64,000 bases of DNA from a plasmid. The notes below the pieces were generated by a model. It ran no database searches, was not told the origin of the DNA, and saw only the letters and a list, made by a program, of their open reading frames with translations. Positions 3,331 to 20,738 of the stretch are shown piece after piece. Position numbers and translations under genes: made by a program. The stretch is from the sequence record NZ_CP025192.1, one strand, 5' to 3'. Within the stretch, counting starts at the first letter, position 1; every line of letters begins with the position of its first letter.

Positions 3331-4053
3331 TCAATAAGGGTTCGCCAAGGCCACGACCCGATTGCCCGCACCGTCGCCTCGCACCTCCAAGGCCGGCGAT
3401 GTCGACAGGAGGTAAGCGGCCGAGTCGCCCAGCGCGAACGGGAACATGACCGGGCTCGACGAGATGCCATCGACCGGGAGCGCGCGCCCCGCATACCGCA
3501 GGCACGCTTCGCTGAGCCACGCCGCGACCGGCGAGCCGTGCAGATCGATGGCAGGGGCGCGGGTGATCCGCTTCCCGTTGTCCAACTTCTCGATCGTCCC
3601 CCAGCTCGCCTGCGACTGGAGCACCATGTTCGTCATGCGGCGCGTACCCTCGCGCTCCCCGTAGGTCTCCGCCATCCGCCGGTGGACTTCCGCCGACCTG
3701 CAGTCGCCGTGCAGCGCCGTCAGCCGGCCAACGATCTCAGCCACCCTTCCGAAGAAGCTGTAGGTCGCCAGGGCCATACCCCAGGTCAGCGGGACGGCCG
3801 TCGTGGACGGCGCAGCGCGATAGATTCGCGCCCCGCGCGCGGTGAAGTCGAGGAGGTCCGGGCGCGGCTCGAGCCACAGCCTGTTCAGAACCGTCCGGGT
3901 CTTCTTCTTGGCCGCCGGGCCGGGATGCGCGGCGTCCAGCAACGCCGTCAGCTCGCCGAGGCTCGCCAGCCCGGCGCTCACGCGAAGAGCCGCCTCGGCC
4001 AGCTCGAGCGGGACGAAGCGGTCGAAGCCAATCTGTGCGGCGGCCGTGCTCAT
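3331..4053 (-). CDS. brxA: Putative BrxA-like terminal gene of the BREX type 3 operon (function inferred from position only)
   Basis: 240-aa ORF whose ATG overlaps the pglZ stop (ATGA). It occupies the brxA position of type 3 BREX. I cannot verify sequence similarity. Confidence 0.45.
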   Translation of the reverse strand: MSTAAAQIGFDRFVPLELAEAALRVSAGLASLGELTALLDAAHPGPAAKKKTRTVLNRLWLEPRPDLLDFTARGARIYRAAPSTTAVPLTWGMALATYSFFGRVAEIVGRLTALHGDCRSAEVHRRMAETYGEREGTRRMTNMVLQSQASWGTIEKLDNGKRITRAPAIDLHGSPVAAWLSEACLRYAGRALPVDGISSSPVMFPFALGDSAAYLLSTSPALEVRGDGAGNRVVALANPY

Positions 4054-6044
4054 TGATCGGCGTCCGCAACCTGCACCCGCACGAACGGCACGATGAGCTC
4101 CTCGACCGATGGTCCGCCGTGAGCGACGATCCGCTCCCCCCGCGGCACGAACGCCTTCCGAGTGCCCGCGTACACCGGCAACACTTCTGGAGGTAGCCCG
4201 GGCACGCCGAGACGGAAGGTGTCGAGCTCCGAAGGGACGGACGCCGCCAACGCGTCGCTACGGTATGTCCGAACCCTCTCGCCCTTGACCTCGGACACCA
4301 CGCCCTGGCTGAGCCGCCCGATTCCTTCGGCCTCCACGTTCCCGTGGTCGGCCGTCAGGTAGACCTGGTAGCCGTGCCCGGCGAGCAAGCGGACGAGGCC
4401 TTCGGCAAACCCGGTGTCGCACCAAGCGGCGATTTGGCCGCTGATGCCCCGCTTCCCGAGCATCGCCCCGTGCACCAGCTCGTCGACCATGTCGACGACG
4501 ATCCCGGCCACCTTCATTCCCGGCTTAGATATCGCCACGGCCAAGTCGGCCAGTTGCTCCGTCCGCTTCAACCCCTTCGCGTAGCACACCTCCGAGCTGC
4601 GGAGGCCGTTCTCCTGCCAGAAGCGCGCCCAAAGCTGCGGCTCCTGGGCCGTGGTGTCGATGGAGGTGGGGAACTCGCGCGGGCGGAGGCCGGAGAAGAG
4701 GGCCTGCCGGGAAACGGAGGTCAGGGTCGGAAGCCACGCGAAGCACGCGCCATCGTCCGCGGCGAAGCCGCGGACCCGCGCGGCCAGGTGGTCGCGGACC
4801 TGTAGCCACTGGTCCATGGCCAGGCCGTCGAACACCACGAGCGCAACGCGCACCTCGCCGGCGGCGCGGCGCAGCGCGAGGTACCTCGGCACGTGGTGGA
4901 CCATGACCGGCCCCCTCGCGGCCGGGAGGGACGGAAGGTCCGCGAAATGCGTCGTGACCCAGAGCCTCAGGCGATCGTCGGCGTCGCGCTGTAGTTGACT
5001 CACCTGCTGCTCCAGCGGTTTCGCGGCATCCACGTTCAGGGAGTGGAAGCGGAAGATCAGCTCCCCGAGGCGGCGCGCGAAGTCGGCCCAGTCGCGGTGG
5101 GACGACCCCGTCGAAGGTAGATTGGTGGCAAGCCGCCTGGCCCCCTGGCCCACCAAGTCTGCCTGCGTGTGCGGGTCTTCGACCAACCCCACCCTCACCC
5201 ATTCCGGCACGCCGGCGGGCGGCCTCCCGACGCCGACCGGACGAAGCCCGCCATCGAGGAACAACGTGCCGACGATCGCCCGGACGTCGGGGTGCTCGAA
5301 CGGCACCGCGATGGCAATCGACTCCACGGCTTCCGCGTCCGGGCCGCTGCCAGCGTCGATGCCCTGCTGGAGCAGGAACCGGCGCCAGGCATCCTGCAGG
5401 ACGCGCAACGTGAAGCTCATGGATGAGAGCAGATCGGCGACCGGGAGACCTCCGATCGCGGTGTCCTTCAACAGCTGCGCGACGTGGTCGGCCAGCACCC
5501 TCGGCAGGCTCGATCCGCGGTAGTGCAGGCGCAGCAGCTCCCGCCAGAAGTCCTCCGGGCCGCCCAGCATGTAGGGGCTGATCCGGAAGACGCGGGTGAG
5601 GATGAAGTCCTTGGTCGCCGCCTCGCCCAGCGGCTGCGGCGCATGCCGGTCTTGCGCCTGGAACATCGCCTCGTGATGCTCCGAGGCGATCTGCCTCACC
5701 ACGCTGTAGCTCAGCCTCGGGAAGAGGTCTGCCAAGCTGAGGCTTACCGTGCGAGCCTGACGGATGTAGTCCCACGGCAGCACGTTCACGTCGGTTCCGC
5801 GCAGCTGCAACACCAGCGCTTTTTCCGGTCCCGCCTCCCCCCGGTCCCACGCGTCCCGGTAGCGTTCCTCGAACTCCACGCGGAAGACGACCGGGTCGTC
5901 GAAGGGCAGAACCTCGAAGCCTCTCTCCCGGAGGCTGTGCAGCACGGCCTCGTCCAGTAGCACGTCGTCAGGATCGCAGGCGATCCAGAATCGGGCCAGC
6001 TCGGTGGGGAACTCCCGAAGGATCCGGTCGGTCCACGCGCTCAC
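4050..6044 (-). CDS. pglZ: BREX PglZ (alkaline-phosphatase superfamily PglZ domain)
   Basis: C-terminal TADHGN...HGG phosphatase-like motifs typical of the PglZ domain. Start overlaps the upstream helicase stop (ATGA). Confidence 0.8.
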   Translation of the reverse strand: MSAWTDRILREFPTELARFWIACDPDDVLLDEAVLHSLRERGFEVLPFDDPVVFRVEFEERYRDAWDRGEAGPEKALVLQLRGTDVNVLPWDYIRQARTVSLSLADLFPRLSYSVVRQIASEHHEAMFQAQDRHAPQPLGEAATKDFILTRVFRISPYMLGGPEDFWRELLRLHYRGSSLPRVLADHVAQLLKDTAIGGLPVADLLSSMSFTLRVLQDAWRRFLLQQGIDAGSGPDAEAVESIAIAVPFEHPDVRAIVGTLFLDGGLRPVGVGRPPAGVPEWVRVGLVEDPHTQADLVGQGARRLATNLPSTGSSHRDWADFARRLGELIFRFHSLNVDAAKPLEQQVSQLQRDADDRLRLWVTTHFADLPSLPAARGPVMVHHVPRYLALRRAAGEVRVALVVFDGLAMDQWLQVRDHLAARVRGFAADDGACFAWLPTLTSVSRQALFSGLRPREFPTSIDTTAQEPQLWARFWQENGLRSSEVCYAKGLKRTEQLADLAVAISKPGMKVAGIVVDMVDELVHGAMLGKRGISGQIAAWCDTGFAEGLVRLLAGHGYQVYLTADHGNVEAEGIGRLSQGVVSEVKGERVRTYRSDALAASVPSELDTFRLGVPGLPPEVLPVYAGTRKAFVPRGERIVAHGGPSVEELIVPFVRVQVADADQ

Positions 6045-8854
6045 GACGCGCCGCCCGCCGGGCCGCCAACGCGCAGCATGAGAACGGAGTGGAGGTCGGG
6101 CACGCGGATCTCGGCGGCGTCGAGCCGCGCCATGCGGGTCTCGTGCTCCGCGCGCAGGCGCCTGCGGCGATACTCGCGCACGCTCGGGAGCCCGATGCGG
6201 CCGATGGCCTGATACCTGACTTCGTAGGCGTGGCGGGCGCGGTCGCGCTCCTCCCGGATGCGGGCTGCGTGCTCTTCCGCCAGCTCGGCGAAGACCTGCT
6301 CACCGTTGGAGACGGCCGCACGCTTGGCGTCGTGGAACCACCGGCCCGGGACCTTCTCCGAGGAAAGCCCGACCAGCCGGATGCGCTCCGTGACGAGGAG
6401 ATCCCAGATCCGCCTCGCGGTCGGCATGAACATGCGCCCCTCGTCGCTCACGAAGACCGCCAGGAAGCGCCGCCTGCCGAAGTCCTCGGCCGACAGACCG
6501 ATCTGCCAAAGGGACCACACGCCCCTGACGGTATCGGGCAGCCCGCCGACCTCGACCACCGGGAGCGGCTGACCGTCCACGCAGCGGGGCAGCTCGGTGA
6601 TGACGGCCCGGGCCCGCGCGTCCTCGAGCGTGACCCACTCCACGTCCGGCCGGCTCGCCGCGGTACGCGCGTCGAAGCACGCACCGACAGATTCGCTGCC
6701 GTCGATCCAGCGGAGACGCCACGTATCGCCGTCCTTGATCGCAGCGCCCCCCTTCCCCGGCAGGCCGGTCGTGATCGCCCGCTCGAGCCAGAACTGCGCG
6801 GGGTGGTCCTGCCACTTGCGTGCGCCTTCCGCGTCGAGCTCCTGGTCGCCGGCGAGGAGGTCGACGTTCCTGCGGCTCTCTGCGACTGCCGACCGGAGCT
6901 GCGACGCCACCGCATCGCACTCGGCTTCGATCGCGTCCGGGTTCTGGAGGCCCTGCACGAACAGCTCGTCGAACAGCCCGTCCGCCTCAACCGAGTCCAT
7001 CACGTCCGCCGCCTTGTCGACGCCAAACTCCTCCGCGATGACGGCGAGCTTCGCCTCGAGAACCTCGCGGACCCGGTGCTCGACGGTGTCCTCAAGGACC
7101 AGGTTGATCGCGCGCACCACATGCGGCTGGCCGATGCGATCGACGCGACCGATGCGCTGCTCGACCCGCATGGGGTTCCACGGCATGTCGAAGTTGACGA
7201 TCACGTGGCAGAACTGGAGGTTGAGCCCCTCGCCACCGGCGTCGGTGGAGACGAGAATCCTGACGTCGCGGGCGAACGCCTGCTGCGCCCGCGTGCGGGT
7301 CTCAAGGTCCATGCCGCCGTTGAGCGTTGCGACCGAGAAGCCACGCGCCTCTAGGAGCGCGGCGAGCATGGCCTGCGTCGGCACGAACTCCGTGAAGACG
7401 AGGACCTTCAGCTGCGGGTCCCCTTCCTCCTGCTGGAGTTTGTAGATGAGATCCAGCAGCGCCTCGGCTTTCGCGTCGGTCCCCTGGGCCTCAGTAGAGC
7501 GGGCGAGCTCGAGAAGCACCTTGACCTCCGCCTTCTCCGTCTGCCAGCCCCTCGCCTCGACGGCCAAGTCGATCTGCGCCTGGCCGTCCAGATCCGCCCA
7601 CTCGTCGACGTCGGCGGTCTCGAAAAGGGACGGCTGGAGCTGCGGCTGGTCCAGCATTGCCAGGCGGTTCTCAAGCGTCGCGCGGATAGCCGCGGTGCTC
7701 GACGTCACCAGCCTCTGCATGAGTATCATGAGGAACCCGATGTGCCGCTGCTTCGCGGCCAGCGCCTGGTTGTAGCCGTGGCGGACGTAGTCGGTGATCG
7801 CCTCGTAGAGACTCCTCTGGGCCGCGTGGCGGTCCTGCCATGCTACGGGATGCAGCCTCGTCATCCGCGGCTTGAAGAGGGCCCTGCCTTCCGCGTCGAT
7901 CGCGGCGCGCTTCTCCGTCCGGATCACGAACGGCCGGACGCGGTCGCTCGTCACGCTACTCTCGTCGGGGAAGGAATCGCGGTCGAGCAGCTGCATGAGC
8001 CGGTGGAACTGGTCGGTCTTGCCCTGGTGGGGCGTCGCCGACAGGAGGAGCAGGTAGGGTGCGGCCTCGGCCAGCGCCGCCCCGAGCTTGTACCGCGCGA
8101 CCTGGTCCGTGCTGCCGCCCATGCGGTGCGCTTCGTCGATGATGACCAGGTCCCACGACGCCGAGACCAGGTCCTCGAAGCGCTCCCGGTTGTACGTGCT
8201 GAGCTGCTCGAGGGTCCAGCCGCGGCGCCCGTCCAGGGGCTTTACGGAATCGAGCGAGCAGATCACCTGGTCGTGGAGTCGCCAGAGGTTCTCCTCGTCG
8301 CTGCGCCACTGGCGGAAAGCGGAGAGCTCGGCCGGTTCGACGAATTGGAAGCTCTCGCCGAAGTGCAGCCGCATCTCCGCCTGCCACTGGCGCACGAGCC
8401 CCTTGGGCGCGACGACGAGGATCCGCTTCGCCATGCCGCGGAGCTTCAGCTCGCGTAGGATCAGCCCGGCCTCGATCGTCTTCCCGAGGCCCACCTCGTC
8501 CGCCAGGAGGTAGCGGATCCGGTGGCGCGCCATCGCGCGGTTCAGCGCGTAGAGCTGGTGCGGCAGCGGCACCACGCTGGACTGGACCGGCGCGAGCAGG
8601 AGGTCGTCCTCCAGCGCGTCGAGCAACCTCGCCGCCGCTGCGGTATGCAGGACGTGTTCGACCGTGGGCTGGACGGAGCCGAGCTGCGCGAGATCCTTCT
8701 CGCGGGCGCGTACGACAGCGTCACGGCTAGGCAGCCAAACCCGATAGGCGACCTCGCCCCAGATCTCTTCCCGGTCGATCACCCGGCAGGGTGCGGCATG
8801 TCGTCCGTGCCAACACCAATCGCCTACCGAGTGCCTGCCGCCGAGCTTGTTCAC
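6041..8854 (-). CDS. brxHII: BREX type 3 SNF2-family helicase BrxHII
   Basis: SNF2 motifs LLADEVGLGKTIEAG and LVIIDEAHRMGG (DEAH box) plus a helicase-C region. The ORF extends to 8980, but the GTG at 8854 overlaps the pglX stop (GTGA) and is the likely start. Confidence 0.8.
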   Translation of the reverse strand: MNKLGGRHSVGDWCWHGRHAAPCRVIDREEIWGEVAYRVWLPSRDAVVRAREKDLAQLGSVQPTVEHVLHTAAAARLLDALEDDLLLAPVQSSVVPLPHQLYALNRAMARHRIRYLLADEVGLGKTIEAGLILRELKLRGMAKRILVVAPKGLVRQWQAEMRLHFGESFQFVEPAELSAFRQWRSDEENLWRLHDQVICSLDSVKPLDGRRGWTLEQLSTYNRERFEDLVSASWDLVIIDEAHRMGGSTDQVARYKLGAALAEAAPYLLLLSATPHQGKTDQFHRLMQLLDRDSFPDESSVTSDRVRPFVIRTEKRAAIDAEGRALFKPRMTRLHPVAWQDRHAAQRSLYEAITDYVRHGYNQALAAKQRHIGFLMILMQRLVTSSTAAIRATLENRLAMLDQPQLQPSLFETADVDEWADLDGQAQIDLAVEARGWQTEKAEVKVLLELARSTEAQGTDAKAEALLDLIYKLQQEEGDPQLKVLVFTEFVPTQAMLAALLEARGFSVATLNGGMDLETRTRAQQAFARDVRILVSTDAGGEGLNLQFCHVIVNFDMPWNPMRVEQRIGRVDRIGQPHVVRAINLVLEDTVEHRVREVLEAKLAVIAEEFGVDKAADVMDSVEADGLFDELFVQGLQNPDAIEAECDAVASQLRSAVAESRRNVDLLAGDQELDAEGARKWQDHPAQFWLERAITTGLPGKGGAAIKDGDTWRLRWIDGSESVGACFDARTAASRPDVEWVTLEDARARAVITELPRCVDGQPLPVVEVGGLPDTVRGVWSLWQIGLSAEDFGRRRFLAVFVSDEGRMFMPTARRIWDLLVTERIRLVGLSSEKVPGRWFHDAKRAAVSNGEQVFAELAEEHAARIREERDRARHAYEVRYQAIGRIGLPSVREYRRRRLRAEHETRMARLDAAEIRVPDLHSVLMLRVGGPAGGAS

Positions 8855-11628
8855 CCGCCCCCCTCGGTCCGGGTGAGCGCCTGATCGTACCAGAGGAGGA
8901 GCTTCTCGTCCTCCTGCAGCGCCTCCTCGGGAATCTTCTGGGCGACGTCGATGATGATTTTGTAGTTCTTGGCCGACCAAGCCACCTTGAAGCCCGCGCG
9001 GAGCACTTCAAGACGGAACTCCTTCAGCCGTCGTCCGGGAGCTACTCGATACCCCTCGAACTCTTTTAGCAAAGCCCTCTCACGCTTCTGCTCCAGATCT
9101 TGCGCCTTACCAGGATCCGGCACGAACCAGCGGTCCTTCGCTTTTGCTTTCAACACTGGATCAGATTTCTCGCGATTCCGCATTTCATGATAGTTTGTTG
9201 AAAGATAGTTATGGATTTGGCTGGGCACATCGCTAGATCCATCGTAGCGCAAGAAATTGTCCTCAAGAAGATCGGAAAGTTCGGGGCGTGTTTCGTGCTT
9301 TTTCCAGCCTGCCCCGAGCTGAGTGATGAACTCCGGGTGCAATTCCTGGTAGGTCGATGGCCGCTTCCGGAGAAAATCGGTCAACCAATCGATGGCGCTA
9401 CGTTCGTCTGCAACGAACATTTCCATTTGCGGTGCCTTAGGCACTTGAGCGCGCTTCTTATCATACTCAATGACCTGATCAGGCAAGAATACCATGCCGT
9501 CTCGCTCTGGAAAGCGGCTCCGAAGACCTTCCTGAAACTCTTGGCTGGAAAGAGGCACAGGCACATTGTGCCGGATAAACCACGCCACCATACGGTCAAA
9601 CAGGATGCGGGGATCGCGCTCCGCGATGAACTCGAGCGCGGCAGCCTTCTGTTTTGTCACTGGCAACTGACGAAGATGGGTCTGGACAAAATCCCAGGCT
9701 GACTCCATTGCAGGCTGGTTTTCAAACCGCTGTTCCAATCCGCCATTCGGTTTATATGCCGATATTATGAGATCCTGCTTTACTGCGACGGTAGTGGTAA
9801 CGGACTTGAAACTTCCCTGCTTCTTGTCGAGAGTTGACACATCGGCAACCACGAACCCAGCTTCTTGTAAAGCGGTTTGCAGGCTGTTCCAAACAGACGC
9901 TTGTGTATTCGAAAATACAACAGTCATCCACCGACCTGGTTTGAGGACACGGTAATATTCAGCGAAGCAAGAGGCCATTATTCGACGATAATCATCAAGA
10001 GATTTTTGTGATGCACGATTTTCTTTGGACCGGTCTACAATCGCATCAAGCCGTGCGTCCGTCATAACGCCATGCCATGCCTCAACAAGAAAATTGAGTT
10101 CTGCGTACGGTAGATTTTCTCCGAACGGAGGGTCGGTGAATACATAGTCGATCGAGGAGTCTTCTAGGGGGAGTTTGGCTGCTGTGCCTGTGGTTGTGAT
10201 AGCATTCTGTGATCTAAGCCTGAAGGCGTCGAAAGCCTTCTCAAGACGGCTCAGCTTACCTTCAAGAATATACCACGGACTGCATTCTGCATGCTGCGCT
10301 CCAACATAATAAACGCCAGCCAGATATTGGTTGACTTGCGAAAAGTGAGTTGGCGCATATCGCGCGAGGATGGACATACCCCAAATCGCTTGCTCTACGA
10401 AGTACATCAACATCGATCGAATGCGGCCATCTTTGTAATTACACGCGCTCCGCCACAAAGCTCCCATGCCGTGCGCTGCACGAGACAGAAACATGTCTTG
10501 AACAGACGTAACGCCTTTGTCACGCATTCGTGGAGCTTCCCACATATCGGCATATGGGAAGCCGGTGGTGGGGACCTCTTCTGGAATAGGAAGGTCGTTG
10601 ATTTTCTTGATGAGAGCTAGGTCAGCAGCATCTGGCTTCTTCTCATACCGGGTGCCGCCCACTTTATACGAGATTAACGAAGGCGCGCGCTTGGGGACGC
10701 TTATCGTCTTGCCGGACAGAGCATCAATCTTCGTCTCATAGCGACGATCCAGCTTCTTTTTCGTAAGTGTTGCGCCGCAGTGGGGGCATGGAAATTCGTC
10801 CCGCACTCGCTTAGTCGAATCATCGAGTGCTTCGTCGATGAAATTCACTTCGTCGGCGCAGTCGGGACACGTGAAGAGTTCGCTCCAAACCGTGAACTCA
10901 ATTCGCCCCTTCGTTTTCCGATCTACATGCAATGTTTCATACATCCAGCCAATCTCGCGCTCGACTTCAGCGAGCAACCGCTTCCCGGCGGCGGCAAAGG
11001 CGCCGACATCAAATGGTAGATTATAGTTCGCGGCGATGAAGGTCGCCGCCGGCGACAGGTCGTTCAAAACGACCTTGCGTGCGCCCCATCGGGGCGCTGG
11101 TTGGCCAGCCTTCTTCCACTCCATCTCGAGCTGCTGGCGGTAGGTGGCGGGCGCCGTGCCGCACCATTGTGCCGCCACGCCTGTCATGCCTGACCCAGCA
11201 AAGCCGTCGAGCACGACGTCACCCGGTTCGGTGAAGTGCAGGATAGACGGCACGATGGCCAAGTGCGGCACTTTGGTGTGATAGGAGTGCGCCTTATAGA
11301 TCGGGTCCGTCTTACCGACCGAGACATCAATCGCCATCGGCTCGCGCGCATACTCCTTGGCCGGGTCGTAGGGCTTGCCGCAGTGCTTCACGAAATCGGC
11401 TAGCCAAGGGTTAGGGCAGGCCGTGTAGTAGGGCGGATCCGACATGGCCAGGATCGCCTCGTCGGTCCCCTTCGGGAACCCCTCCTGTGTGCGGAAGGCG
11501 GGGTCCTTCAGCTTCTCGGCCAGCAGCTTCCGGAAATGCTCGCGGCGCGCGTCCTCGTTCGGAAAGGTCAGCCCCAGGCATGTCACCGCACCTGCCGCGC
11601 CAGGGCGAGGGATCAGAGTCTCATTCAT
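8851..11628 (-). CDS. pglX: BREX adenine-specific DNA methyltransferase PglX (type 3 PglXI, N6_N4_Mtase family)
   Basis: 925 aa with DPPY and FTDPPFGENLPY methyltransferase motifs. It sits between brxC and the SNF2 helicase. The central and C-terminal part has markedly lower GC. Confidence 0.85.
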   Translation of the reverse strand: MNETLIPRPGAAGAVTCLGLTFPNEDARREHFRKLLAEKLKDPAFRTQEGFPKGTDEAILAMSDPPYYTACPNPWLADFVKHCGKPYDPAKEYAREPMAIDVSVGKTDPIYKAHSYHTKVPHLAIVPSILHFTEPGDVVLDGFAGSGMTGVAAQWCGTAPATYRQQLEMEWKKAGQPAPRWGARKVVLNDLSPAATFIAANYNLPFDVGAFAAAGKRLLAEVEREIGWMYETLHVDRKTKGRIEFTVWSELFTCPDCADEVNFIDEALDDSTKRVRDEFPCPHCGATLTKKKLDRRYETKIDALSGKTISVPKRAPSLISYKVGGTRYEKKPDAADLALIKKINDLPIPEEVPTTGFPYADMWEAPRMRDKGVTSVQDMFLSRAAHGMGALWRSACNYKDGRIRSMLMYFVEQAIWGMSILARYAPTHFSQVNQYLAGVYYVGAQHAECSPWYILEGKLSRLEKAFDAFRLRSQNAITTTGTAAKLPLEDSSIDYVFTDPPFGENLPYAELNFLVEAWHGVMTDARLDAIVDRSKENRASQKSLDDYRRIMASCFAEYYRVLKPGRWMTVVFSNTQASVWNSLQTALQEAGFVVADVSTLDKKQGSFKSVTTTVAVKQDLIISAYKPNGGLEQRFENQPAMESAWDFVQTHLRQLPVTKQKAAALEFIAERDPRILFDRMVAWFIRHNVPVPLSSQEFQEGLRSRFPERDGMVFLPDQVIEYDKKRAQVPKAPQMEMFVADERSAIDWLTDFLRKRPSTYQELHPEFITQLGAGWKKHETRPELSDLLEDNFLRYDGSSDVPSQIHNYLSTNYHEMRNREKSDPVLKAKAKDRWFVPDPGKAQDLEQKRERALLKEFEGYRVAPGRRLKEFRLEVLRAGFKVAWSAKNYKIIIDVAQKIPEEALQEDEKLLLWYDQALTRTEGGG

Positions 11629-13495
11629 TGTCGGCCTCGTTCGTGGGGCGCGCCGCGGGCTGACGGCCTGCGCGCAGCGCTCGGAGCTTGATGCCGGCCT
11701 CCGTCAGCACATACTGCTGGTTTGGCGACCGAGGTTTGTCCGGTACGGTCATTCGCAGTACGCGCGCCTGCAGAAGCGGCTCGAGGTACTGTGCCATGAA
11801 GTGCGGACGCTGCTTGTAGCCCGCCCGCGCCATGAGATCTGCGAGGCTGCGCGGCACGTCCGCGTGCTCGACGACGCGCCACTGGCCTTCAGTCAACCGA
11901 TCAAGCGACCGAACAAGCTCGGGCTGGCTGTCGGCAGCTTGTTCGGTGGCTTGTTCGGTCGTGGATGACGCCGTTGTCTGGTCCCCGCCCCCTTGGCCCT
12001 GTGGCGCCGCACCGGCCAGCGACGGCCCGTAACGCGAGCGGAGATGGGCGGGCAGCGTGTACTGAGCCCCCCCGGTTTCTAGCGGTGCCACCAGAACCTG
12101 GGCAACCAGGCGCTCGATAACCGCCTTCGCCGCAGCACTGGTCAGGCCCGTGAGCGCCTTGACGTCGGTGAGGTCGATGTGGCCGCGGCGGGTAAGGTAC
12201 GCGAAGACCGCCGCCTCGTGCTCCGACAGGCTGGCCCCGAGGCTCGCCTGAGCCAGGAGCTGCTCCTCGGTGATCAGCTTCTCCTTCCGCATCGTCAGCC
12301 GGAAGGTCTTGTCCGCCTTGTCGTTGTCGATCTCCGGCGGGAGATAGCCGAGGCTCCGCCAGCCGTTGAAGATCGCGCCGACCCCGGTGCCGCCCTGGTC
12401 GGACAGACCGATACGCCGGAAGGCGTTCACGACGCTTGGGTTGCGGACCTCCTTGTCGCCGGGGTCCAGCAGCCTTTCCCTCGGGGAGAACGCATCGCCC
12501 GGATTGAAGAACTCGGTCTGGTTATGGAAGAACCTGATCACCGGGAGCCGTGTGTGGTCAGAGAAGTCCTGGTGGATGAGCAGGTTGATGGCCGCCTCGC
12601 GGAAGGACACGTAATCGGCGGGGTCATCGTCGCGTCTAAAGGTCGCCGCGTCGACCGAGAACGGGCGCTCGCTGTGCTTGAAGTAGAAGCCGACGATGCT
12701 CTGCCAGGTCTGGATCAGGTTCTCTTCGCAGGTCACGCGGTCCGCCCAGCGGACGCTCGGGGAGTAGTCATCCGCGCCGCTCCGATACAGCTGCAGGTCT
12801 ACCGCCATGCGGGGTAGGATTTGACGGAAGTAGCCGTCCGCGCCCAGCGTGAGGATCGCTGCCCGAGTCGGGAGCAGGACGCCGCCGTGCTCGACGACGA
12901 AGCTCCACCTGCGCAGGAAGGCGTCATCGTCGTCGCCCTCGTTCCTCCCTGGGTTGCTGGCGTTGAAGCGTGCCCGGTACCACCGCAGCGATGCTGCGTC
13001 GAAGCACTGTTTGATGTCCAAATCCAACGGCTCAGCATCGAAGCGCTCGGTGGCCCCATCCCGATAGAAGCGGAGCAACTCGTCGGCGGTGCACGTGTCA
13101 TCGCGACCACCCCGACGGATGAATGCCTTGCGCAGATCCCGGTCGATGTAGACCGGCTTAGCGCGACGTTCGGCCTCGGGGATCCAGAAGGCCAGCACCG
13201 TGCCTTCGGGCAGATTGTGCAGGTGAGCGCGGACAGGCAGCCGTACGCTAATCTTGTTCAGATCGCGCAATTGGCCGAGGAAGTCGTTCTGAACATTGTC
13301 CGCCTCGACGACGCCGGTGACCGAGAAGGAGCCGCGCGTCTCCTTGACCCCGAACACGAGGTACCCACCCGACGTATTGGCGAACGCGCTCACCGTGGAG
13401 AAGGCATTGCGCGGCACCATCGTGGCGGCCTCCTTGAACTCCACGTCGTTCCATTCGATGGACTGGAGCTTCGCCAGCAACTCGTCGCGGGTCAT
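11621..13495 (-). CDS. AlbA_2 (Schlafen-like) + HATPase_c_4 + C-terminal wHTH protein inserted in the BREX operon
   Basis: SIEWNDVEFKEA...SAFANTSGGYLVFGV matches the AlbA_2 signature. AINLLIHQDFSDH...FFNPGD matches the HATPase_c_4 signature. The ATG at 13495 lies 2 nt after the brxC stop, and the 3' end overlaps the pglX start by 8 nt. The ORF runs to 13930, but its N-terminal 145 aa are an overlap artefact. Confidence 0.7.
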   Translation of the reverse strand: MTRDELLAKLQSIEWNDVEFKEAATMVPRNAFSTVSAFANTSGGYLVFGVKETRGSFSVTGVVEADNVQNDFLGQLRDLNKISVRLPVRAHLHNLPEGTVLAFWIPEAERRAKPVYIDRDLRKAFIRRGGRDDTCTADELLRFYRDGATERFDAEPLDLDIKQCFDAASLRWYRARFNASNPGRNEGDDDDAFLRRWSFVVEHGGVLLPTRAAILTLGADGYFRQILPRMAVDLQLYRSGADDYSPSVRWADRVTCEENLIQTWQSIVGFYFKHSERPFSVDAATFRRDDDPADYVSFREAAINLLIHQDFSDHTRLPVIRFFHNQTEFFNPGDAFSPRERLLDPGDKEVRNPSVVNAFRRIGLSDQGGTGVGAIFNGWRSLGYLPPEIDNDKADKTFRLTMRKEKLITEEQLLAQASLGASLSEHEAAVFAYLTRRGHIDLTDVKALTGLTSAAAKAVIERLVAQVLVAPLETGGAQYTLPAHLRSRYGPSLAGAAPQGQGGGDQTTASSTTEQATEQAADSQPELVRSLDRLTEGQWRVVEHADVPRSLADLMARAGYKQRPHFMAQYLEPLLQARVLRMTVPDKPRSPNQQYVLTEAGIKLRALRAGRQPAARPTNEADNE

Positions 13496-13497: not shown

Positions 13498-16400
13498 CTA
13501 CTCCACCACGAACCGCAGTTTGGTGGTGTCCCTGCCCTTGCACCGGTCGCTCAGGAACGTCTCGAAACGCTTGCGCAGGTCCTCGGGCGTGGCCGGCGAA
13601 CCGCCCTGGAGCAGCGCCTGCTTGATCTCGCCGCCGGTGACTGGGATCTTCTCGAGGCCTGACAGCGCCTCCTGCACCGCCGCGACGAAGTCCGAGCCCA
13701 CCGGATCGGGAAGCGCCTTCGACGCGACGAACCCGTCGACCAGCTTCCGGGTCGCGGGCTTGAGCAGGTCGAAGTTCGCCTGGATTATCGGGTCTTCCAG
13801 GTTGTCCAGCAGCGTCTGCTGCCACCCATCGAGCAGCCGGTCGAGCTCGCCGTCCAGCTGCTTCAGCATGGTCGCTGCCGGCAGCATGTCGCCCTGTTCG
13901 CTCGTCGGCCGGAAGTGGCAGTGTGGGCAAACAGGACTGGCTGCGAGGTCCGCATCCATCAAAGAGTCGCAGCTCTTTAGCTTGCCGAGCTTGTCCTCGA
14001 AGCTGTCGAGCTGGCTGGTGGGCATCAAGGAAATGTTGCGGAGCACTCGCATTGCGATCAGCCGACCGTCCTTGCGCAGAGCTTCCTTACTCTTGTTCTC
14101 CGCCACGCCGAGGCGCGCTCTGCTATGCTGCCCGACGTAGGCAGCAACGTAGTCTTTCTTCAGGCGTGCCAGGATTTGCCGGTACTCGCCTGCGTGCTGC
14201 GCAGTTCGATCGGTTGCGAGCCGCTCAAACACCTGCTTGCGCGCCGCTTGCGCCTGCTGCACCCAGGGATCATCGCCCGTCAGCACCATCTCGGCCTGCG
14301 AGAGGTAGCCGGCCGCGGTGCCCAATTCCGCGACGAGTTCCAGCATGCGTTCGACGGCGTCCAGCGCCTCCAGGTGCTTCTTTTGCGCCGCCACGTCGTC
14401 CGAGCCGACGCGCAGGTTCTTGAGCTTGCCCACCGTGTTGTACGGAGACAGACTCTCCGCGAAGGCCTTCAGCGCATCCAGCTTCGCCCGCCAGTCGGCG
14501 AGCTCGTTCTCGCGCAGGAGCGGCTGCCCCCAGAAGCTCAGCCGTCCCGCCATATCGGTCGTCGCGGCGAGCACGCGCCGCGTCAGCTTCGTGACCTCCT
14601 CCTGCAGCCGCTTGACCGGCTCGTCGGACCCCTGCGCGGCCTGCTGCGCGAGACCGGGCTGGAGGCCGAGCATCTCGAATAGCGCGCGAAGGACGGCGAC
14701 GTTGATCTCCCGCGGGGCCTCGACGTGCTTAAACTGCCGGAGCTCGTCGAGCGGCCGCTCGGCGAGCAGCGCGATCTTGCCAGGATCGATCTTGTCGCCG
14801 GCGACCGCCAGCACGATGTCGCCCGAGTAGACGAGTGCGCCCAGCACCGCGACGAGCAGATCGGGCTCTAGCCGGAACTTGAGCGGCGCGAAGTACTCGA
14901 CGTCGGCGCCGCCGCTCAGCAGCTCGCCGCGGTTCAGCACCTGCCCGTGGCCCTTCGCCTTGAGACGCGAGAGGACCTCCTGCGCGTAGCGGGACCGCTC
15001 CGGGTCGAGGCGATCGCCGTCCAGCATCTCGAGGCCGTCCAGGATGACCACCGCGTCCTTGGTGCGGGGCCCGCCGGCGAGGGCGCGCAGCGCGTTCCCA
15101 ACGAGCTGCTTTCGGTTCGCCTCGGTCAGCAGCGCAGTGAACGTCGGGTACTCGGGCGCCACCTCAGCGAACCGGTTGCCCAGCGCCACGCCGGCGATCA
15201 CGTTCACCACGTCGCGGAAGTTGATGCGCTCGTCGGGCCGCAGCCGCGCCTTGTCGCGCAGCGAGATCCCCTTCGTCCACTCCTGTAGGGTCCGGGCCTT
15301 GCCCTGGTAGGTGACCTCGTAGGCCGCCATTTGCTTTTCCTGCAGCCACTTGCCCATCTCGCGCAGGGCGTCGTTCGCCTTGTCGAGGTAGACGCTTTTG
15401 GCGGCGCCGCTGGCGGTCGACGCGAGGTCCTGCGCAGCGGCGTAGCAGGACAGGTGCCGCCTGATCGCGTCGTCGGGGCCCTTGAGCCGGAAGAACACCT
15501 CGTCGGCCTTGTGCTCGTCGCGAAAGCGCGGCGGCTCGAACGGCTGGATGAAGTAGATGTAGAAGTCGCGCTCGGGCTGCGCCGTCGGCCGGTCGTTCGG
15601 CGCGCCGAAGAAGAGGTAGCCGATGCGCTCGACGCGGCGCTCCTGCCACTCGATCTGGTACTGCCAGATCTGGTGGCCGGCGACGTAGGTGGTCTCGTCC
15701 GTGCGCTCCATGAGCTGGCGGACCGCGCTGAAGTAGGCGCGGTCGAGCGCGTCGTCCGAGAGCGCCTCGGCCCGCTTCTCGATCTGGGCGTCGTAGTCGA
15801 CGTCCTTCTTTAAATCCAGGAAGTACTGGTCGGTGTCGGGCGCCCTGGAGATGAACTGGCCGTTGACGGTCTTCAGCGTCTCGCGGAGGACGGTCTGCAC
15901 CAGGGAAAGCAGGTCGGCGTCGGGCTCGCCGCCCATCGCGTCGATGCCCGGTTGGAACAGGCAGAGCGTGTCCCGCAGTTCGGTGGCGGTTGGCCCCACG
16001 GGCACGTAGATGTCCCCGCCCGTCGTCAGCCGGTGCACCGAGAGGCCGTTGATGATCCGGAGCGCCATTGGCCGGTAGGCGGGACGGGTGAACGCCTTCC
16101 TTACCCGTTCGGACAGAACCTCGGAAACTTTCAGCACCGGCCCGATGCTCGGGTCGGCGCGGAGGACGGAGTTGGCCGTGATCGTGTCCCAGAACCTGTC
16201 GTAGCCGATCAGCCCCGGGCGGTCGCCCGGTACCTCGTCGTCCAGGATGTCCTGGATCTGGTCGCGGAGGGTGACCAGCGCGCCGCGCTTCTCGGCGAAG
16301 ACCAGGCGCTCGAACGTCCCGATGTAGTCGGGGTGCACCGGGAACAGCCGCACGTAGTCGTCCATGCGCTCGTTCATGGACCCGTAAAACTTGGAGAACG

Positions 16401-17253
16401 GCGCCAGGTACGCCCGGATCCGCTCCTGCTGGTCGGCGGTCTTCTTCAGCAGACGCTCCGCCACGACGAAGCTGACGTCCTGCCGGGCGAGCAGGATCTG
16501 CGTGAACCGGTCCTTCACGCGGCGCAGGCTGTCGGCCACGTGCTGGAAGCGGCTGCTGTCGAAGACCGCCTCCTGGACGCCGGCGACGAAGCGGAACCTC
16601 AGGTGCTTCGTGACCTCGCCGATCTCCCGCAGGAAGGACAGGTCGAGGACGAGGTCGTGGTCCCTCCGGGACCGCAGGTACTCGAGGAACTCGTCGACGA
16701 CGAGGAGTACGCCCTGGTTTGGGTGGCGCTCGGCGAAGGCCGCCATCATCTCCTCGAAGGCGGCCTTGTTGTTGATGACCTTGTTGGCCGGCGGGAAGAC
16801 GTAGCTTACCCCGTTCTTCTCTAAGAAGATCTCGAGCTGCTGCGTGACGATGTCCCGCAGGGACATCTGGCTCGAGATCTCGATGCGGTGCACCTTGAAC
16901 TTCCCGGCGATCGCCGCGGCCGCCTCGGCGACCTTAGGATGGCGGATCATCGGGACGTACGCGGCGTCTTCGGCCACCAGCGAGAGTACCGACATGAGGT
17001 GCGACTTGCCGGTGCCGTAGTTCCCGACGACGAGCACCCCCTTGTGGTCCACCGCCTCGTCGAACGAGAGCTGCGGGACGATGAGCTTCGCGATCCGCTC
17101 AGCCATGTCGTCCGAGATCACGTAGGTCGACACCAGCTTCCGCGCCTCGTCCGGGCGGTTGGCGTCCAGAAGTTGGATGACGGACTCGATCGGCTCGAAC
17201 TGGATCAGGTCGCCATAGCGCATCGGCATCCGGTCTTTCCTGCTAACCAACAT
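13498..17253 (-). CDS. brxC: BREX ATPase BrxC/PglY (large P-loop protein)
   Basis: 1251 aa with Walker A GNYGTGKSH near the N-terminus. Size and position match BrxC. Confidence 0.85.
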   Translation of the reverse strand: MLVSRKDRMPMRYGDLIQFEPIESVIQLLDANRPDEARKLVSTYVISDDMAERIAKLIVPQLSFDEAVDHKGVLVVGNYGTGKSHLMSVLSLVAEDAAYVPMIRHPKVAEAAAAIAGKFKVHRIEISSQMSLRDIVTQQLEIFLEKNGVSYVFPPANKVINNKAAFEEMMAAFAERHPNQGVLLVVDEFLEYLRSRRDHDLVLDLSFLREIGEVTKHLRFRFVAGVQEAVFDSSRFQHVADSLRRVKDRFTQILLARQDVSFVVAERLLKKTADQQERIRAYLAPFSKFYGSMNERMDDYVRLFPVHPDYIGTFERLVFAEKRGALVTLRDQIQDILDDEVPGDRPGLIGYDRFWDTITANSVLRADPSIGPVLKVSEVLSERVRKAFTRPAYRPMALRIINGLSVHRLTTGGDIYVPVGPTATELRDTLCLFQPGIDAMGGEPDADLLSLVQTVLRETLKTVNGQFISRAPDTDQYFLDLKKDVDYDAQIEKRAEALSDDALDRAYFSAVRQLMERTDETTYVAGHQIWQYQIEWQERRVERIGYLFFGAPNDRPTAQPERDFYIYFIQPFEPPRFRDEHKADEVFFRLKGPDDAIRRHLSCYAAAQDLASTASGAAKSVYLDKANDALREMGKWLQEKQMAAYEVTYQGKARTLQEWTKGISLRDKARLRPDERINFRDVVNVIAGVALGNRFAEVAPEYPTFTALLTEANRKQLVGNALRALAGGPRTKDAVVILDGLEMLDGDRLDPERSRYAQEVLSRLKAKGHGQVLNRGELLSGGADVEYFAPLKFRLEPDLLVAVLGALVYSGDIVLAVAGDKIDPGKIALLAERPLDELRQFKHVEAPREINVAVLRALFEMLGLQPGLAQQAAQGSDEPVKRLQEEVTKLTRRVLAATTDMAGRLSFWGQPLLRENELADWRAKLDALKAFAESLSPYNTVGKLKNLRVGSDDVAAQKKHLEALDAVERMLELVAELGTAAGYLSQAEMVLTGDDPWVQQAQAARKQVFERLATDRTAQHAGEYRQILARLKKDYVAAYVGQHSRARLGVAENKSKEALRKDGRLIAMRVLRNISLMPTSQLDSFEDKLGKLKSCDSLMDADLAASPVCPHCHFRPTSEQGDMLPAATMLKQLDGELDRLLDGWQQTLLDNLEDPIIQANFDLLKPATRKLVDGFVASKALPDPVGSDFVAAVQEALSGLEKIPVTGGEIKQALLQGGSPATPEDLRKRFETFLSDRCKGRDTTKLRFVVE

Positions 17254-17782
17254 TGAACGGCACCCACCCTTCCGTGCCGTAGTTCTGGTGCTCCGGGTGG
17301 CCCGGCACCGCGTAGACCAGACGCCCGTCCCGCAGCTCTCCCGGCCAAGCGGCGACGACGCGGCGCCCGTGGGAGTGCCGCCTCATCAGGTCCAGGGGAC
17401 TGAGCCGTAGGGTCCAGTCGAAGAGGAGCTCTATGTTGTCCCAGAGCAGCAGGTCACGGCCGACCGTCCCGTCGGCCAGTTCCTTCAGCAGGTCGGGAGC
17501 CATGAGGTGCCGTTGGGACGCGGGCAGCGGGACGAGGAGGCGGCCGAGAGCCTCGCCCAGCCGCATGACGGGGGCATTCCGGCGCGTGGAAAGCTGCCCC
17601 AGCAGCTTGCTCTTGCCGGATCCCGGAGGACCGACGAGGAGCACGAGCTTGCTATTCAAGCCCGCGACGTCTTCGACGAGGCGCTCAAGGATGTCGATCA
17701 CGGTACGCGCCTTGAACAGAGCCGAAGGTTCCGACCTCGAGCCGCATCGAGCGCCGACGCGAGGCTCTCTGGCGGAGGGCAC
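17243..17782 (-). CDS. brxF: BREX type 3 small P-loop ATPase BrxF
   Basis: 179 aa with Walker A LVGPPGSGKSKL. It is the first gene of the operon and overlaps the brxC start by 11 nt. Confidence 0.65.
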   Translation of the reverse strand: MPSAREPRVGARCGSRSEPSALFKARTVIDILERLVEDVAGLNSKLVLLVGPPGSGKSKLLGQLSTRRNAPVMRLGEALGRLLVPLPASQRHLMAPDLLKELADGTVGRDLLLWDNIELLFDWTLRLSPLDLMRRHSHGRRVVAAWPGELRDGRLVYAVPGHPEHQNYGTEGWVPFNVG

Positions 17783-18310: not shown

Positions 18311-18973
18311 GTGGCTGCGACGGTGCTGACGGTGGCGTCCACAAAGGGCGGCGCCGGCAAGACGACGATCGTGATGGCGCTCGCCGGCACCCTCGCCGCC
18401 GAGGGGCTGCGCGTCGCTGTCGTGGACGCAGACCCGAACCGCGCCTACGCCTCCTGGGCCGAGCAGGCCTACGAGGGCCCCGCCATCGCGGTCCGCGCCG
18501 AGGCAGACGAGGCGCGGCTCGCGGCGGCGATCGACGAGCTATCGCCCCAGGCCGACCTGGTCCTGGTGGACACGGCCGGCTTCGGCAACCGCGCCGCCCT
18601 GCTCGCCATGGCCGCGGCCGACGCCGTGCTCGTGCCCTGCACCCCGAGCCGCGCCGACGTCGAGCAGGCCGCTAAGACACTGGAACTGGTGGATGGCGCC
18701 GCTCGGGCGGCGCGGCGCGCCATCCCCGCGCGCGTTGTTCCATCGCGCCTGAAGCAGGCGACCGCGGTGTCGCGCCATGCGGTGGCCGAGCTCGACGCGG
18801 CCGCCCTCCCCCGCACCGCCGCCGGGGTCGGCGACCGCGTCGCCTTCGCCGAGATGACCTTCTCCGGCCGCGTCCCCGCCGGCGGCGACGCCGGGCAGGA
18901 GGTCGCGAAGCTGGTCGCGGAGCTGCGCAAGCTCGGCTGGTTGCCGCCCAAGCCGAGGGCGGCTCGCGCGTAG
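18311..18973 (+). CDS. parA: ParA-family partition ATPase
   Basis: Deviant Walker A KGGAGKTT. GTG start preceded by GGGGGACGGAG. Confidence 0.85.
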   Translation: MAATVLTVASTKGGAGKTTIVMALAGTLAAEGLRVAVVDADPNRAYASWAEQAYEGPAIAVRAEADEARLAAAIDELSPQADLVLVDTAGFGNRAALLAMAAADAVLVPCTPSRADVEQAAKTLELVDGAARAARRAIPARVVPSRLKQATAVSRHAVAELDAAALPRTAAGVGDRVAFAEMTFSGRVPAGGDAGQEVAKLVAELRKLGWLPPKPRAARA

Positions 18974-18981
18974 CGCCTATA

Positions 18982-18993
18982 TGCTAGCAGGTA
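18982..18993. repeat. TGCTAGCAGGTA motif between parA and the RHH gene
   Basis: Near-identical to AGCTAGCAGGTA at 20739-20752. The two copies bracket the RHH-oriV-repA cassette. Confidence 0.35.
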
Positions 18994-20737: not shown

Positions 20738-20738
20738 A

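What the first reader, a model, noticed from the sequence alone, without database searches (positions are those of the whole stretch)
11621..13495. AlbA_2 (Schlafen-like) + HATPase_c_4 gene embedded inside the BREX operon between brxC and pglX
Canonical type 3 BREX has six genes. Here a seventh is inserted between brxC and pglX. It carries the AlbA_2 motif (IEWNDVEFKEA...FANTSGGYLVFGV) and the HATPase_c_4 motif (INLLIHQDFSDH...FFNPGD). Its ATG sits 2 nt after the brxC stop and its end overlaps the pglX start, so it is co-translated rather than a separate cassette. It could be an accessory sensor, regulator or effector of this BREX system, or an embedded second defence gene. Neither arrangement is described for type 3 BREX as far as I know.
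Basis: partly seen in the sequence, partly recalled or inferred. Interest (0 to 1): 0.75.

Follow-up and report, generated by a model that had tools for sequence, protein, structure and literature searches.

The report
Schlafen nuclease gene inside BREX operon
A seventh gene inside this type 3 BREX phage-defence operon encodes a Schlafen-type nuclease fused to an ATPase and DNA-binding domains, but this arrangement is common in such operons and was already described in 2026, so it is real but not new.

Summary
A 624-aa ORF (11621-13495, minus strand) lies between brxC and pglXI of a complete type 3 BREX operon. It starts 2 nt after the brxC stop and overlaps the pglXI start by 8 nt. It carries SLFN_AlbA_2, HATPase_c_4 and a C-terminal Fic-like winged helix, all above Pfam cut-offs.

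The novelty claim does not hold. In 80 species-level BREX-3 loci, 23 carry a relative of this gene inside the operon. An insert sits between brxC and pglXI in 48 of 76 loci. Starting instead from the gene, 77 of 80 metagenome relatives sit in BREX-3 operons.

The Ex4ExK nuclease motif, the SAFAN box and the GHKL ATP-binding motifs are invariant across the clade. By analogy with CbCash, RorSlfn5 and RzAgo, the most likely function is an ATP-gated tRNA nuclease acting as a second, abortive-infection layer.

Two things remain untested. No BREX-embedded version has been tested experimentally. It is unknown whether the gene depends on BREX-3 or works alone.

The parts
11621..13495 (-). Gene X: 624-aa Schlafen(AlbA_2)-GHKL ATPase-wHTH-wHTH protein, the extra gene inside the BREX-3 operon
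13091..13456 (-). Schlafen/AlbA_2 nuclease domain (residues 14-135)
13433..13456 (-). Catalytic motif E14-x4-E19-x-K21 (EWNDVEFK)
   Evidence: E14, E19 and K21 are invariant in 61 clade sequences. E14 and K21 are invariant in 26 locus-derived sequences, including divergent ones. The motif matches Ex4(E/D)xK of CbCash E17/D22/K24, pSlfn and RzAgo.
13376..13390 (-). SAFAN 'Schlafen box' (S36-N40), followed by the GGYLVFGV core
   Evidence: Read directly from the translation. F38 and N40 are invariant; S36, A37 and A39 are at least 90% conserved. The motif is defined.
12287..12619 (-). GHKL-type ATPase domain (about residues 293-403; Pfam HATPase_c_4 match at 320-401)
12026..12268 (-). First winged helix-turn-helix, MarR-like (about residues 410-490)
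11906..12022 (-). Low-confidence, poorly conserved linker (residues 492-530)
   Evidence: pLDDT below 50 over 492-530. No conserved columns in this region.
11702..11848 (-). Second winged helix, Fic-like_C (residues 550-598), with near-invariant PDKPxSxxQxYxLT
   Evidence: Pfam PF21247 E 1.3e-14. PDB 4RGL hit. T583, P588, S590, Q593 and Y595 invariant.
13498..17253 (-). brxC/pglY (DUF6079 ATPase), upstream neighbour
   Evidence: Pfam DUF6079 at 1896 bits. PADLOC BrxC at 1752 bits. 84-86% identical across many Alphaproteobacteria.
8851..11628 (-). pglXI methyltransferase, downstream neighbour; its start overlaps gene X by 8 nt
   Evidence: PADLOC PglXI at 1330 bits. Pfam N6_N4_Mtase. Junction read.
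17243..17782 (-). brxF (public gene calls give 152 aa, so the true start is probably downstream of 17782)
   Evidence: NCBIfam BREX_3_BrxF E 5e-48. PADLOC BrxF. Gene calls in identical loci.
6041..8980 (-). brxHII SNF2 helicase (public gene calls give 913 or 937 aa, so the true start is probably near 8780-8850)
   Evidence: PADLOC BrxHI|BrxHII at 1400 bits, matching from residue 51. Pfam SNF2-rel_dom and Helicase_C. Gene calls.
4050..6044 (-). pglZ (BREX-3 type)
   Evidence: NCBIfam BREX_PglZ_3 E 5e-200.
3331..4053 (-). brxA
   Evidence: PADLOC BrxA E 2.4e-55.

Best explanation
Gene X is an optional, BREX-3-dedicated member of the prokaryotic Schlafen-GHKL ATPase-wHTH family (the 'Schlatpase-HTH' architecture). 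It occupies a cargo slot between brxC and pglXI and is expressed from the BREX operon by translational coupling.

Most likely mechanism (inferred, not shown). The protein is held inactive. [quoted passage not shown] That nuclease cleaves tRNA (or other RNA) and stops translation. This gives a second, abortive-infection layer when a phage engages or defeats BREX.

The trigger is probably read through the two winged-helix domains, through contact with BREX-3 proteins, or both. I lean slightly towards functional coupling to BREX-3 rather than full autonomy.
For: Shown here.

- Domains and structure: three Pfam domains above cut-off. The Schlafen, GHKL and wHTH folds are supported by an AF2 model (pLDDT 76) matching 3LMM, 2KYY, SLFN12, SAMD9 AlbA_2 and MarR-family proteins.
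- Motifs: Ex4ExK, the F and N of the SAFAN box (its S and two A at least 90% conserved), and the GHKL motifs E300, N304, D310, NPGD and DQxGTG are invariant over 61 sequences down to 43% identity. Both enzymatic centres are therefore under selection.
- Clade specificity: 77 of 80 metagenome relatives (44-71% identity), found with the X alignment alone, are flanked by BREX-3 genes. The one informative exception is a 5'-truncated copy. All other contexts checked are also BREX-3.
- Co-divergence: pairwise identities of X and BrxC correlate (Pearson r 0.59, Mantel p 0.001, 67 loci).
- Junctions: the brxC-to-X spacing is at most 8 nt in 62 of 73 loci. The X stop overlaps the pglXI start in 29 of 61 loci.

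From the literature.

- Schlafen domains with this motif cleave tRNA in CbCash, RorSlfn5 and RzAgo.
- In RzAgo the same SLFN+PF13749 supradomain binds ATP, tetramerises and reconstitutes the nuclease.
- PMC12839542 proposes BREX-linked Schlafen-HisK-wHTH proteins as backup suicidal effectors.
Against: - No BREX-embedded Schlafen-GHKL-wHTH protein has been tested. RNase activity, ATP gating and abortive infection are all extrapolated from proteins with different sensor domains.
- The gene is optional: 57 of 80 surveyed BREX-3 loci lack it.
- The same slots hold known or candidate autonomous systems: PD-T7-3-like, HEC-01, SIR2+HerA, OLD-like and RhuM. BxaP, another BREX-3 insert, defends without BREX.
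- The restriction of this clade to BREX-3 operons could arise simply because cassettes spread by recombination between flanking brxC and pglXI sequences.
- The window's X is about 67% identical to X in loci whose BrxC is only 68-77% identical. It is only 60-62% identical to X in loci whose BrxC is 84-86% identical. That indicates cassette exchange rather than strict co-inheritance.
- PADLOC v2 has no model that matches it.
Confidence: 0.45

Rival explanations
1. Autonomous embedded defence gene. X senses phage and acts entirely on its own. It merely lodges in a recombination-permissive slot of the BREX-3 operon for co-transfer and co-expression, as PARIS does in type 1 BREX and BxaP does in type 3 BREX.
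For: An insert lies between brxC and pglXI in 48 of 76 loci. Only 16 of 62 loci have the plain six-gene order. The other occupants are known or candidate stand-alone systems. BxaP works without BREX. Related Schlafen-ATPase-DNA-binding clusters associate with R-M and type I CRISPR. There are signs of cassette exchange between BREX-3 loci.
Against: This clade was found essentially only in BREX-3 operons: 77 of 80 loci, with the exceptions being two short contigs and one truncated copy. It shows moderate co-divergence with BrxC. Two lineages each prefer one slot: type A was in brxC|pglXI in all 31 members whose slot could be placed, and type B was mostly in pglXI|brxHII. The 2-8 nt junction is conserved.
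Confidence: 0.3
2. Integral seventh subunit. In loci that carry it, X takes part in the primary BREX-3 reaction, for example DNA sensing or recruitment through its winged helices, or DNA rather than RNA cleavage. Without it, restriction or methylation fails.
For: Translational coupling on both sides. Clade specificity for BREX-3. Two DNA-binding-type domains. The AlbA_2 domain of SAMD9 was crystallised with DNA (7KSP). The primary restriction mechanism of BREX-3 is not established.
Against: Most close BREX-3 loci lack X, including loci whose BrxC is 84-86% identical. The core therefore works without it. No compensating change in the core gene set was seen. Every tested prokaryotic Schlafen domain with this motif cleaves tRNA.
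Confidence: 0.12
3. Transcriptional regulator. X is an HTH repressor or activator of the BREX operon. This is the older COG-style annotation for the architecture, and one source names a homologue 'transcriptional regulator'.
For: Two winged-helix domains. One source names a homologue 'transcriptional regulator'.
Against: The nuclease and ATPase motifs are invariant, which a pure DNA-binding regulator would not require. The gene sits mid-operon with no room for its own promoter. Several loci with X also carry a separate upstream WYL/BrxR regulator. X has no WYL domain.
Confidence: 0.06

Closest known systems
[quoted passage not shown]
   Same: Same domain architecture and same position, inside or adjacent to BREX core loci. 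They are proposed there as backup, abortive-infection effectors.
   Different: Nothing of substance; this gene is an instance of that class. My survey adds details I could not confirm in the papers' text. The clade found here is essentially confined to BREX-3. It occurs in about 29% of 80 species-level loci. It splits into two lineages with different preferred slots.
'Schlatpase' supradomain (SLFN AlbA_2 + PF13749 GHKL ATPase), characterised in the Schlafen-Argonaute RzAgo (bioRxiv 10.64898/2026.05.29.728809)
   Same: Same two Pfam domains in the same order. Same E(x)4(D/E)xK and SAFAN motifs. A conserved glutamate in the ATPase N-box. Most members end in an HTH.
   Different: RzAgo uses an Argonaute core with an RNA guide as its sensor. 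X has only two winged helices and sits in a BREX-3 operon. Sequence similarity to RzAgo was not measured here.
PDB 3LMM (DIP2311, Corynebacterium diphtheriae), a structural-genomics protein of unknown function
   Different: Only 17-18% identity. Its genomic context was not examined and no function is known.
CbCash and RorSlfn5 (prokaryotic Schlafen tRNases)
   Same: Schlafen nuclease domain with the Ex4(E/D)xK triad; abortive-infection logic.
   Different: Their sensors differ: Csx15 binding cA4, and an Ig-like domain binding a phage tail chaperone. Neither has a GHKL ATPase or a BREX context.
BxaP (PMC10799925), and PARIS or PrrC embedded in BREX or type I R-M operons
   Same: An extra defence gene sits between core genes of a methylation-based system. 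BxaP lies between PglXI and BrxHII of type 3 BREX. PARIS-like modules in BREX are discussed. The PrrC-EcoprrI guard analogy is from my own knowledge.
   Different: There is no sequence or fold relationship to X. BxaP is PD-T7-3-like, and PARIS and PrrC are ABC-type ATPase systems. This is a functional analogy only.

Membership tests
Type 3 BREX (the surrounding operon) | All six core genes in order: brxF, brxC/pglY (DUF6079), pglXI (N6_N4 MTase), brxHII (SNF2 helicase), BREX-3 pglZ, brxA | tested here: met
   PADLOC BrxF, BrxC, PglXI, BrxHII, PglZ and BrxA hits. NCBIfam BREX_3_BrxF and BREX_PglZ_3 above cut-off. Pfam. The canonical six-gene composition is taken from PMC10799925 and PMC12839542.
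Prokaryotic Schlafen nuclease (SLFN_AlbA_2, PF04326) | Profile match to the AlbA_2 domain above the curated threshold | tested here: met
   57.1 bits against a cut-off of 25.3, residues 14-135, covering 117 of 118 profile positions.
Prokaryotic Schlafen nuclease (SLFN_AlbA_2, PF04326) | Catalytic Ex4(E/D)xK motif and SAFAN box | tested here: met
   E14, E19 and K21 are invariant in 61 sequences, as are F38 and N40 of SAFAN 36-40; S36, A37 and A39 are at least 90% conserved.
Prokaryotic Schlafen nuclease (SLFN_AlbA_2, PF04326) | Schlafen C-lobe-like fold | tested here: met
Prokaryotic Schlafen nuclease (SLFN_AlbA_2, PF04326) | Metal-dependent tRNA/RNA cleavage | not testable with these tools
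   Requires biochemistry.
'Schlatpase'-HTH architecture (SLFN + PF13749 GHKL ATPase + C-terminal HTH) | PF13749 domain C-terminal to the Schlafen domain, with intact ATP-binding motifs | tested here: met
   HATPase_c_4 at 36.4 bits against a cut-off of 26. Invariant E300, N304, D310, NPGD 331-334 and DQxGTG 366-371. Architecture defined.
'Schlatpase'-HTH architecture (SLFN + PF13749 GHKL ATPase + C-terminal HTH) | C-terminal helix-turn-helix | tested here: met
   Fic-like_C wHTH plus a MarR-like wHTH in the model.
'Schlatpase'-HTH architecture (SLFN + PF13749 GHKL ATPase + C-terminal HTH) | ATP binding and hydrolysis that drive oligomerisation | not testable with these tools
   Shown only for RzAgo.
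BREX-embedded Schlafen-HisK-wHTH 'backup effector' class (PMC12839542) | That architecture, encoded within or immediately next to BREX core genes | tested here: met
   The gene lies between brxC and pglXI with a 2-nt gap and an 8-nt overlap. Class definition.
BrxR-type (WYL) BREX regulator | WYL domain with an N-terminal wHTH, encoded upstream of the operon | tested here: not met
   No WYL or BrxR Pfam hit in X. Separate BrxR genes coexist with X in P. aeruginosa and Roseicitreum loci.
RecG helicase (the name some sources give homologues) | Superfamily 2 helicase motor domains | tested here: not met
   No DEAD, Helicase_C or ResIII hit in X at E up to 0.01. The JGI name 'ATP-dependent DNA helicase RecG' is a misnomer inherited from the Pfam description of PF13749.
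Known defence-system proteins in PADLOC v2.0.0 / NCBIfam | Match to any curated defence or naming model | tested here: not met
   X has no hits in either library.

The most novel reading that the evidence does not exclude
X is not an independent hitch-hiker but a true BREX-3 guard. It would be a dedicated seventh subunit, held inactive by contact with BrxC or PglXI. When a phage inhibitor disables the complex, or when the complex stalls on unmodified DNA, X would convert that BREX failure into tRNA cleavage. This would be a PrrC-EcoprrI-like arrangement for BREX. The two slot-specific lineages would be adapted to different partners, and the 629-aa HATPase_c_3 gene would act as a co-factor in some loci.
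Probability: 0.3. Interest if true: 0.6.

Novelty: already known. Interest (0 to 1): 0.3.

Why it matters
Type 3 BREX has hardly been studied experimentally, and its restriction step is unknown. A nuclease that is found essentially only in BREX-3 operons, and is translationally coupled to brxC and pglXI, offers a practical way to study how BREX signals infection or failure to a second defence layer. The association itself has already been published, so the value here is as an experimental lead. It also corrects the six-gene picture: in the sampled clade, most BREX-3 operons carry embedded cargo. It is not a discovery.

Tried and rejected
- PADLOC and NCBIfam scans of X gave nothing.
- The supplements of PMC12839542 that are held as text contain no 'Schlafen' or 'Roseomonas' entries. 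I could not extract the per-type counts behind its Fig. 9A.
- Goldfarb 2015 is not held. The six-gene canon is cited through later papers instead.
- A plasmid tblastn search found only two clade members: Roseicitreum (59% identity), which I confirmed is in BREX-3, and Methylomonas (43% identity), whose context I did not fetch. All other hits were 33% identical or less. One of these was fetched (Pantoea, H5). It was not in a BREX locus.
- The 50%-cluster representative search showed a continuum from 66% down to about 30% identity rather than a clean gap. No sharp clade boundary can be drawn from it, and contexts of those representatives cannot be looked up.
- The RecG-helicase naming was rejected because there are no helicase domains.
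- Antisense ORFs over X were rejected because they have no Pfam hits.
- L115, the one apparent non-BREX context, turned out to be a 5'-truncated copy next to genes I read as phage tail-fibre-like (DUF7483 and DUF4376 hits only).
- I considered X as a BrxR substitute. I rejected this because BrxR coexists with X elsewhere and X has no WYL domain.
Full report
**1. Observation**

All relevant genes are on the minus strand. The ORF 11621-13495 encodes 624 residues.

The brxC stop (TAG, 13500-13498) is followed by two nucleotides and then the ATG at 13495-13493. The TGA at 11623-11621 lies within ATGAATGA, so the pglXI ATG (11628-11626) overlaps by 8 nt.

Pfam gives three domains above curated cut-offs:
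- SLFN_AlbA_2, residues 14-135, E 3.2e-15
- HATPase_c_4, residues 320-401, E 5.2e-9

The neighbours form a complete type 3 BREX:
- brxF, 17243-17782
- brxC, 13498-17253
- pglXI, 8851-11628
- brxHII, 6041-8980
- pglZ, 4050-6044
- brxA, 3331-4053

**2. Identity and relatives**

The protein is 100% identical to an NCBI 'RNA-binding domain-containing protein' of Roseomonas mucosa. The same arrangement is present on 17 contigs of that species and related samples. It is also present in Teichococcus oryzae, where X is 87% identical and has the same 2-nt gap and 8-nt overlap.

More than 120 clusters at the 90% level are at least 64% identical over the full length. They span Alpha-, Beta- and Gammaproteobacteria, Desulfuromonadales and Verrucomicrobiota.

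Every context I looked up places the gene between brxC and pglXI of a BREX-3 operon. These were P. aeruginosa, Bradyrhizobium, Desulfuromonadales and a Roseicitreum plasmid.

**3. How common is it in type 3 BREX?**

I scanned one genome per species with a BrxC alignment and obtained at least 387 confirmed BREX-3 BrxC loci. The best 80 were kept, with BrxC 69-86% identical to the window's.

Mapping the window's BREX proteins onto these 80 loci gave the following:
- 23 carry an X relative (42-66% identity) inside the operon.
- Of those, 12 lie between brxC and pglXI, and 2 lie directly after brxC on truncated contigs.
- The other 9 lie between pglXI and brxHII.

More generally:
- 48 of 76 loci have an insert of at least 400 nt between brxC and pglXI.
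- 20 of 62 have one between pglXI and brxHII.
- Only 16 of 62 show the plain six-gene order.

Other occupants of these slots were identified with Pfam and PADLOC:
- PD-T7-3-like proteins (11 loci)
- HEC-01 (AAA_21 + DUF4276)
- HEC-02B
- PDC-M61
- SIR2 + HerA
- OLD-like ATPase-TOPRIM
- RhuM
- several families with no hit

The two junctions are therefore cargo slots, and the X family is their most frequent occupant in this sample. The sample is biased towards BrxC close to the query.

**4. Is the X clade specific to BREX-3?**

An independent scan of metagenome contigs, using only an alignment of X relatives, returned 80 loci with 44-71% identity. BREX-3 core genes flank X in 77 of them, even where BrxC is only 40-56% identical to the window's.

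The three exceptions are explained:
- Two are contigs too short to judge.
- The third, L115, holds an X copy lacking its first 58 residues, including the catalytic motif. It sits next to genes I read as phage tail-fibre-like (DUF7483 and DUF4376 hits only).

On plasmids, the only relatives above 33% identity are Roseicitreum, which I confirmed is in BREX-3, and a Methylomonas record whose context I did not fetch. One of the weaker hits was fetched (Pantoea, H5). It was not in a BREX locus.

Across 67 loci, pairwise identities of X and BrxC correlate (Pearson r 0.59, Mantel p 0.001). Two lineages stand out:
- The window's lineage (type A, 34 members) sat in the brxC|pglXI slot in all 31 members whose slot could be placed.
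- A second lineage (type B, 43-46% identical) is mostly in pglXI|brxHII.

Inheritance is not strictly vertical. The window's X is closer to X from loci with more distant BrxC than to X from the most similar BrxC loci. Loci whose BrxC is 86% identical carry a PD-T7-3-like gene in the slot instead.

The brxC-to-X spacing is at most 8 nt in 62 of 73 loci. The X stop overlaps the pglXI start in 29 of 61 loci. These figures rest on heuristic start-codon calls.

**5. Anatomy and likely mechanism**

In an alignment of 61 clade members reaching down to 43% identity, the following are invariant:
- Schlafen catalytic motif: E14, E19 and K21 (Ex4ExK)
- F38 and N40 of the SAFAN box (S36, A37 and A39 are at least 90% conserved)
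- GHKL motifs: E300, N304, H308, D310, N331-P332-G333-D334, R351-N352 and D366-Q367-x-G369-T370-G371
- A PDKPxSxxQxY loop in the last winged helix, largely invariant

The AF2 model has mean pLDDT 76.4, with a disordered linker at 492-530. Its structural matches are:

The published precedents are:
- The same motif is catalytic for tRNA cleavage in CbCash (E17/D22/K24), in pSlfn proteins such as RorSlfn5 and in RzAgo.
- In RzAgo the identical SLFN + PF13749 pair binds and hydrolyses ATP and tetramerises. This assembles two Schlafen domains into an active nuclease.

I therefore infer that X is an ATP-gated RNase, probably a tRNase, that acts as a second, abortive-infection layer. The domains, motifs, conservation, operon coupling and clade distribution are shown here. 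The substrate, the ATP gating, the trigger and any contact with BREX proteins are inferred.

**6. Rivals**

- **Fully autonomous cargo.** This is a serious rival. The slots hold stand-alone systems, and BxaP, another BREX-3 insert, defends without BREX. Confinement to BREX-3 could also follow from recombination through flanking brxC and pglXI.
- **Core seventh subunit.** This is unlikely because most close BREX-3 loci lack the gene.
- **Pure transcriptional regulator.** This is unlikely given the invariant catalytic motifs, the mid-operon position and coexistence with a separate BrxR.

**7. Comparison with the literature, and novelty**

PMC12839542 (NAR, January 2026) states that type 3 BREX has six conserved core components. 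[quoted passage not shown] It finds them closely linked to core loci in at least 1017 taxa and interprets them as backup suicidal effectors.

PMC13462974 (July 2026) lists a BREX-associated cluster of Schlafen + ATPase + DNA-binding proteins. PMC10799925 (2024) described and tested an unrelated insert, BxaP, between PglXI and BrxHII.

The finding is therefore a real instance of an arrangement that is already described. No one has tested a BREX-embedded member.

My survey adds three details that I could not verify in those papers' text:
- near-exclusive BREX-3 linkage of this clade
- two lineages with different preferred slots
- frequent co-occurrence of type A with a 629-aa HATPase_c_3 gene

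**8. Verdict**

Novelty: already known. Interest: 0.3.

The most novel reading still open is that X is a BREX-3-dependent guard subunit rather than independent cargo. I put that at a probability of about 0.3.

Noticed in passing
window 8900-11000 (within pglXI, 8851-11628, minus strand): pglXI has much lower GC (0.549; GC3 0.62) than every other BREX gene here (0.65-0.70; GC3 0.83-0.92). The low-GC block (0.47-0.55) covers roughly the C-terminal three quarters of the protein, while the first ~200 codons have native GC. This looks like a recent recombinational replacement of most of the methyltransferase, possibly a specificity swap.
   Followed up: partly
window 131-3149 and 18311-23189: The BREX-3 operon sits on what looks like a mobile or plasmid-derived defence island. 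It includes a tyrosine integrase (131-1240, minus) and a GmrSD type IV restriction enzyme directly after brxA (1383-3149, plus). Upstream are a PhdYeFM-like small gene, ParA, RepA_C (19727-20737, plus) and a DUF559/MTES_1575 nuclease-like gene (22062-23189, minus). No tRNA gene lies in 1-30000.
   Followed up: partly
L007-L086 (80 BREX-3 loci), intervals brxC-pglXI and pglXI-brxHII: Only 16 of 62 loci have the plain six-gene order. The two junctions hold many different cassettes: PD-T7-3-like, HEC-01, HEC-02B, PDC-M61, SIR2+HerA plus a 453-aa unknown, OLD-like, RhuM and SfsA. They also hold families with no Pfam or PADLOC hit (about 140 aa, 220 aa and 640 aa).
   Followed up: partly
L007:13729-15087 and ten other loci (L008, L012, L014, L017, L019, L032, L037, L048, L058, L077): A 447-467-aa PD-T7-3-like gene (PADLOC E 2e-37, no Pfam hit) fills the brxC|pglXI slot in 11 of 80 loci. 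These include the loci whose BrxC is closest to the window's (86%). PMC10799925 described the PD-T7-3-like BxaP in type 3 BREX as rare (0.29% of BREX-carrying MAGs) and located between PglXI and BrxHII.
   Followed up: partly
L001:8037-9926, L003:11853-13742, L034:13784-15706, L071:14813-16702, and 13 of the 80 metagenome loci: A 629-640-aa HATPase_c_3 (MORC/Hsp90-like GHKL) gene occurs only next to type-A X, on either side of it, between brxC and pglXI. It has no PADLOC hit and is absent from the window. It may be a two-gene module with X.
   Followed up: partly
L115:7535-11408: An X copy lacking its first 58 residues, including the catalytic motif, lies with the HATPase_c_3 gene next to genes I read as phage tail-fibre-like (DUF7483 and DUF4376 hits only), with no BREX genes in 7.8 kb upstream. 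It is a rearranged remnant or an assembly chimera.
   Followed up: yes
window 6041-8980, 17243-17782 and 13498-17253: The mechanical ORF starts are probably too long. Public gene calls for identical loci give BrxHII as 913 or 937 aa (ORF 979), BrxF as 152 aa (ORF 179) and BrxC as 1243 aa (ORF 1251). The apparent 130-nt brxHII/pglXI overlap is therefore likely an artefact of the TTG start.
   Followed up: partly
L072:4872-6308, L039:11071-12588, L040:7176-8894: Shorter, divergent AlbA_2-type proteins (478-572 aa) also occupy the brxC|pglXI slot. They have EDSRHQFK or EAQDLDFK in place of EWNDVEFK. L072 carries one of these together with a type-B X in the second slot.
   Followed up: no
BrxC homologues compared with X homologues: BREX-3 BrxC is unusually conserved: 84-86% identity across many alphaproteobacterial genera, with more than 120 clusters at 83% or above. 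X and PglXI diverge much faster (about 66% and 52-74%).
   Followed up: no
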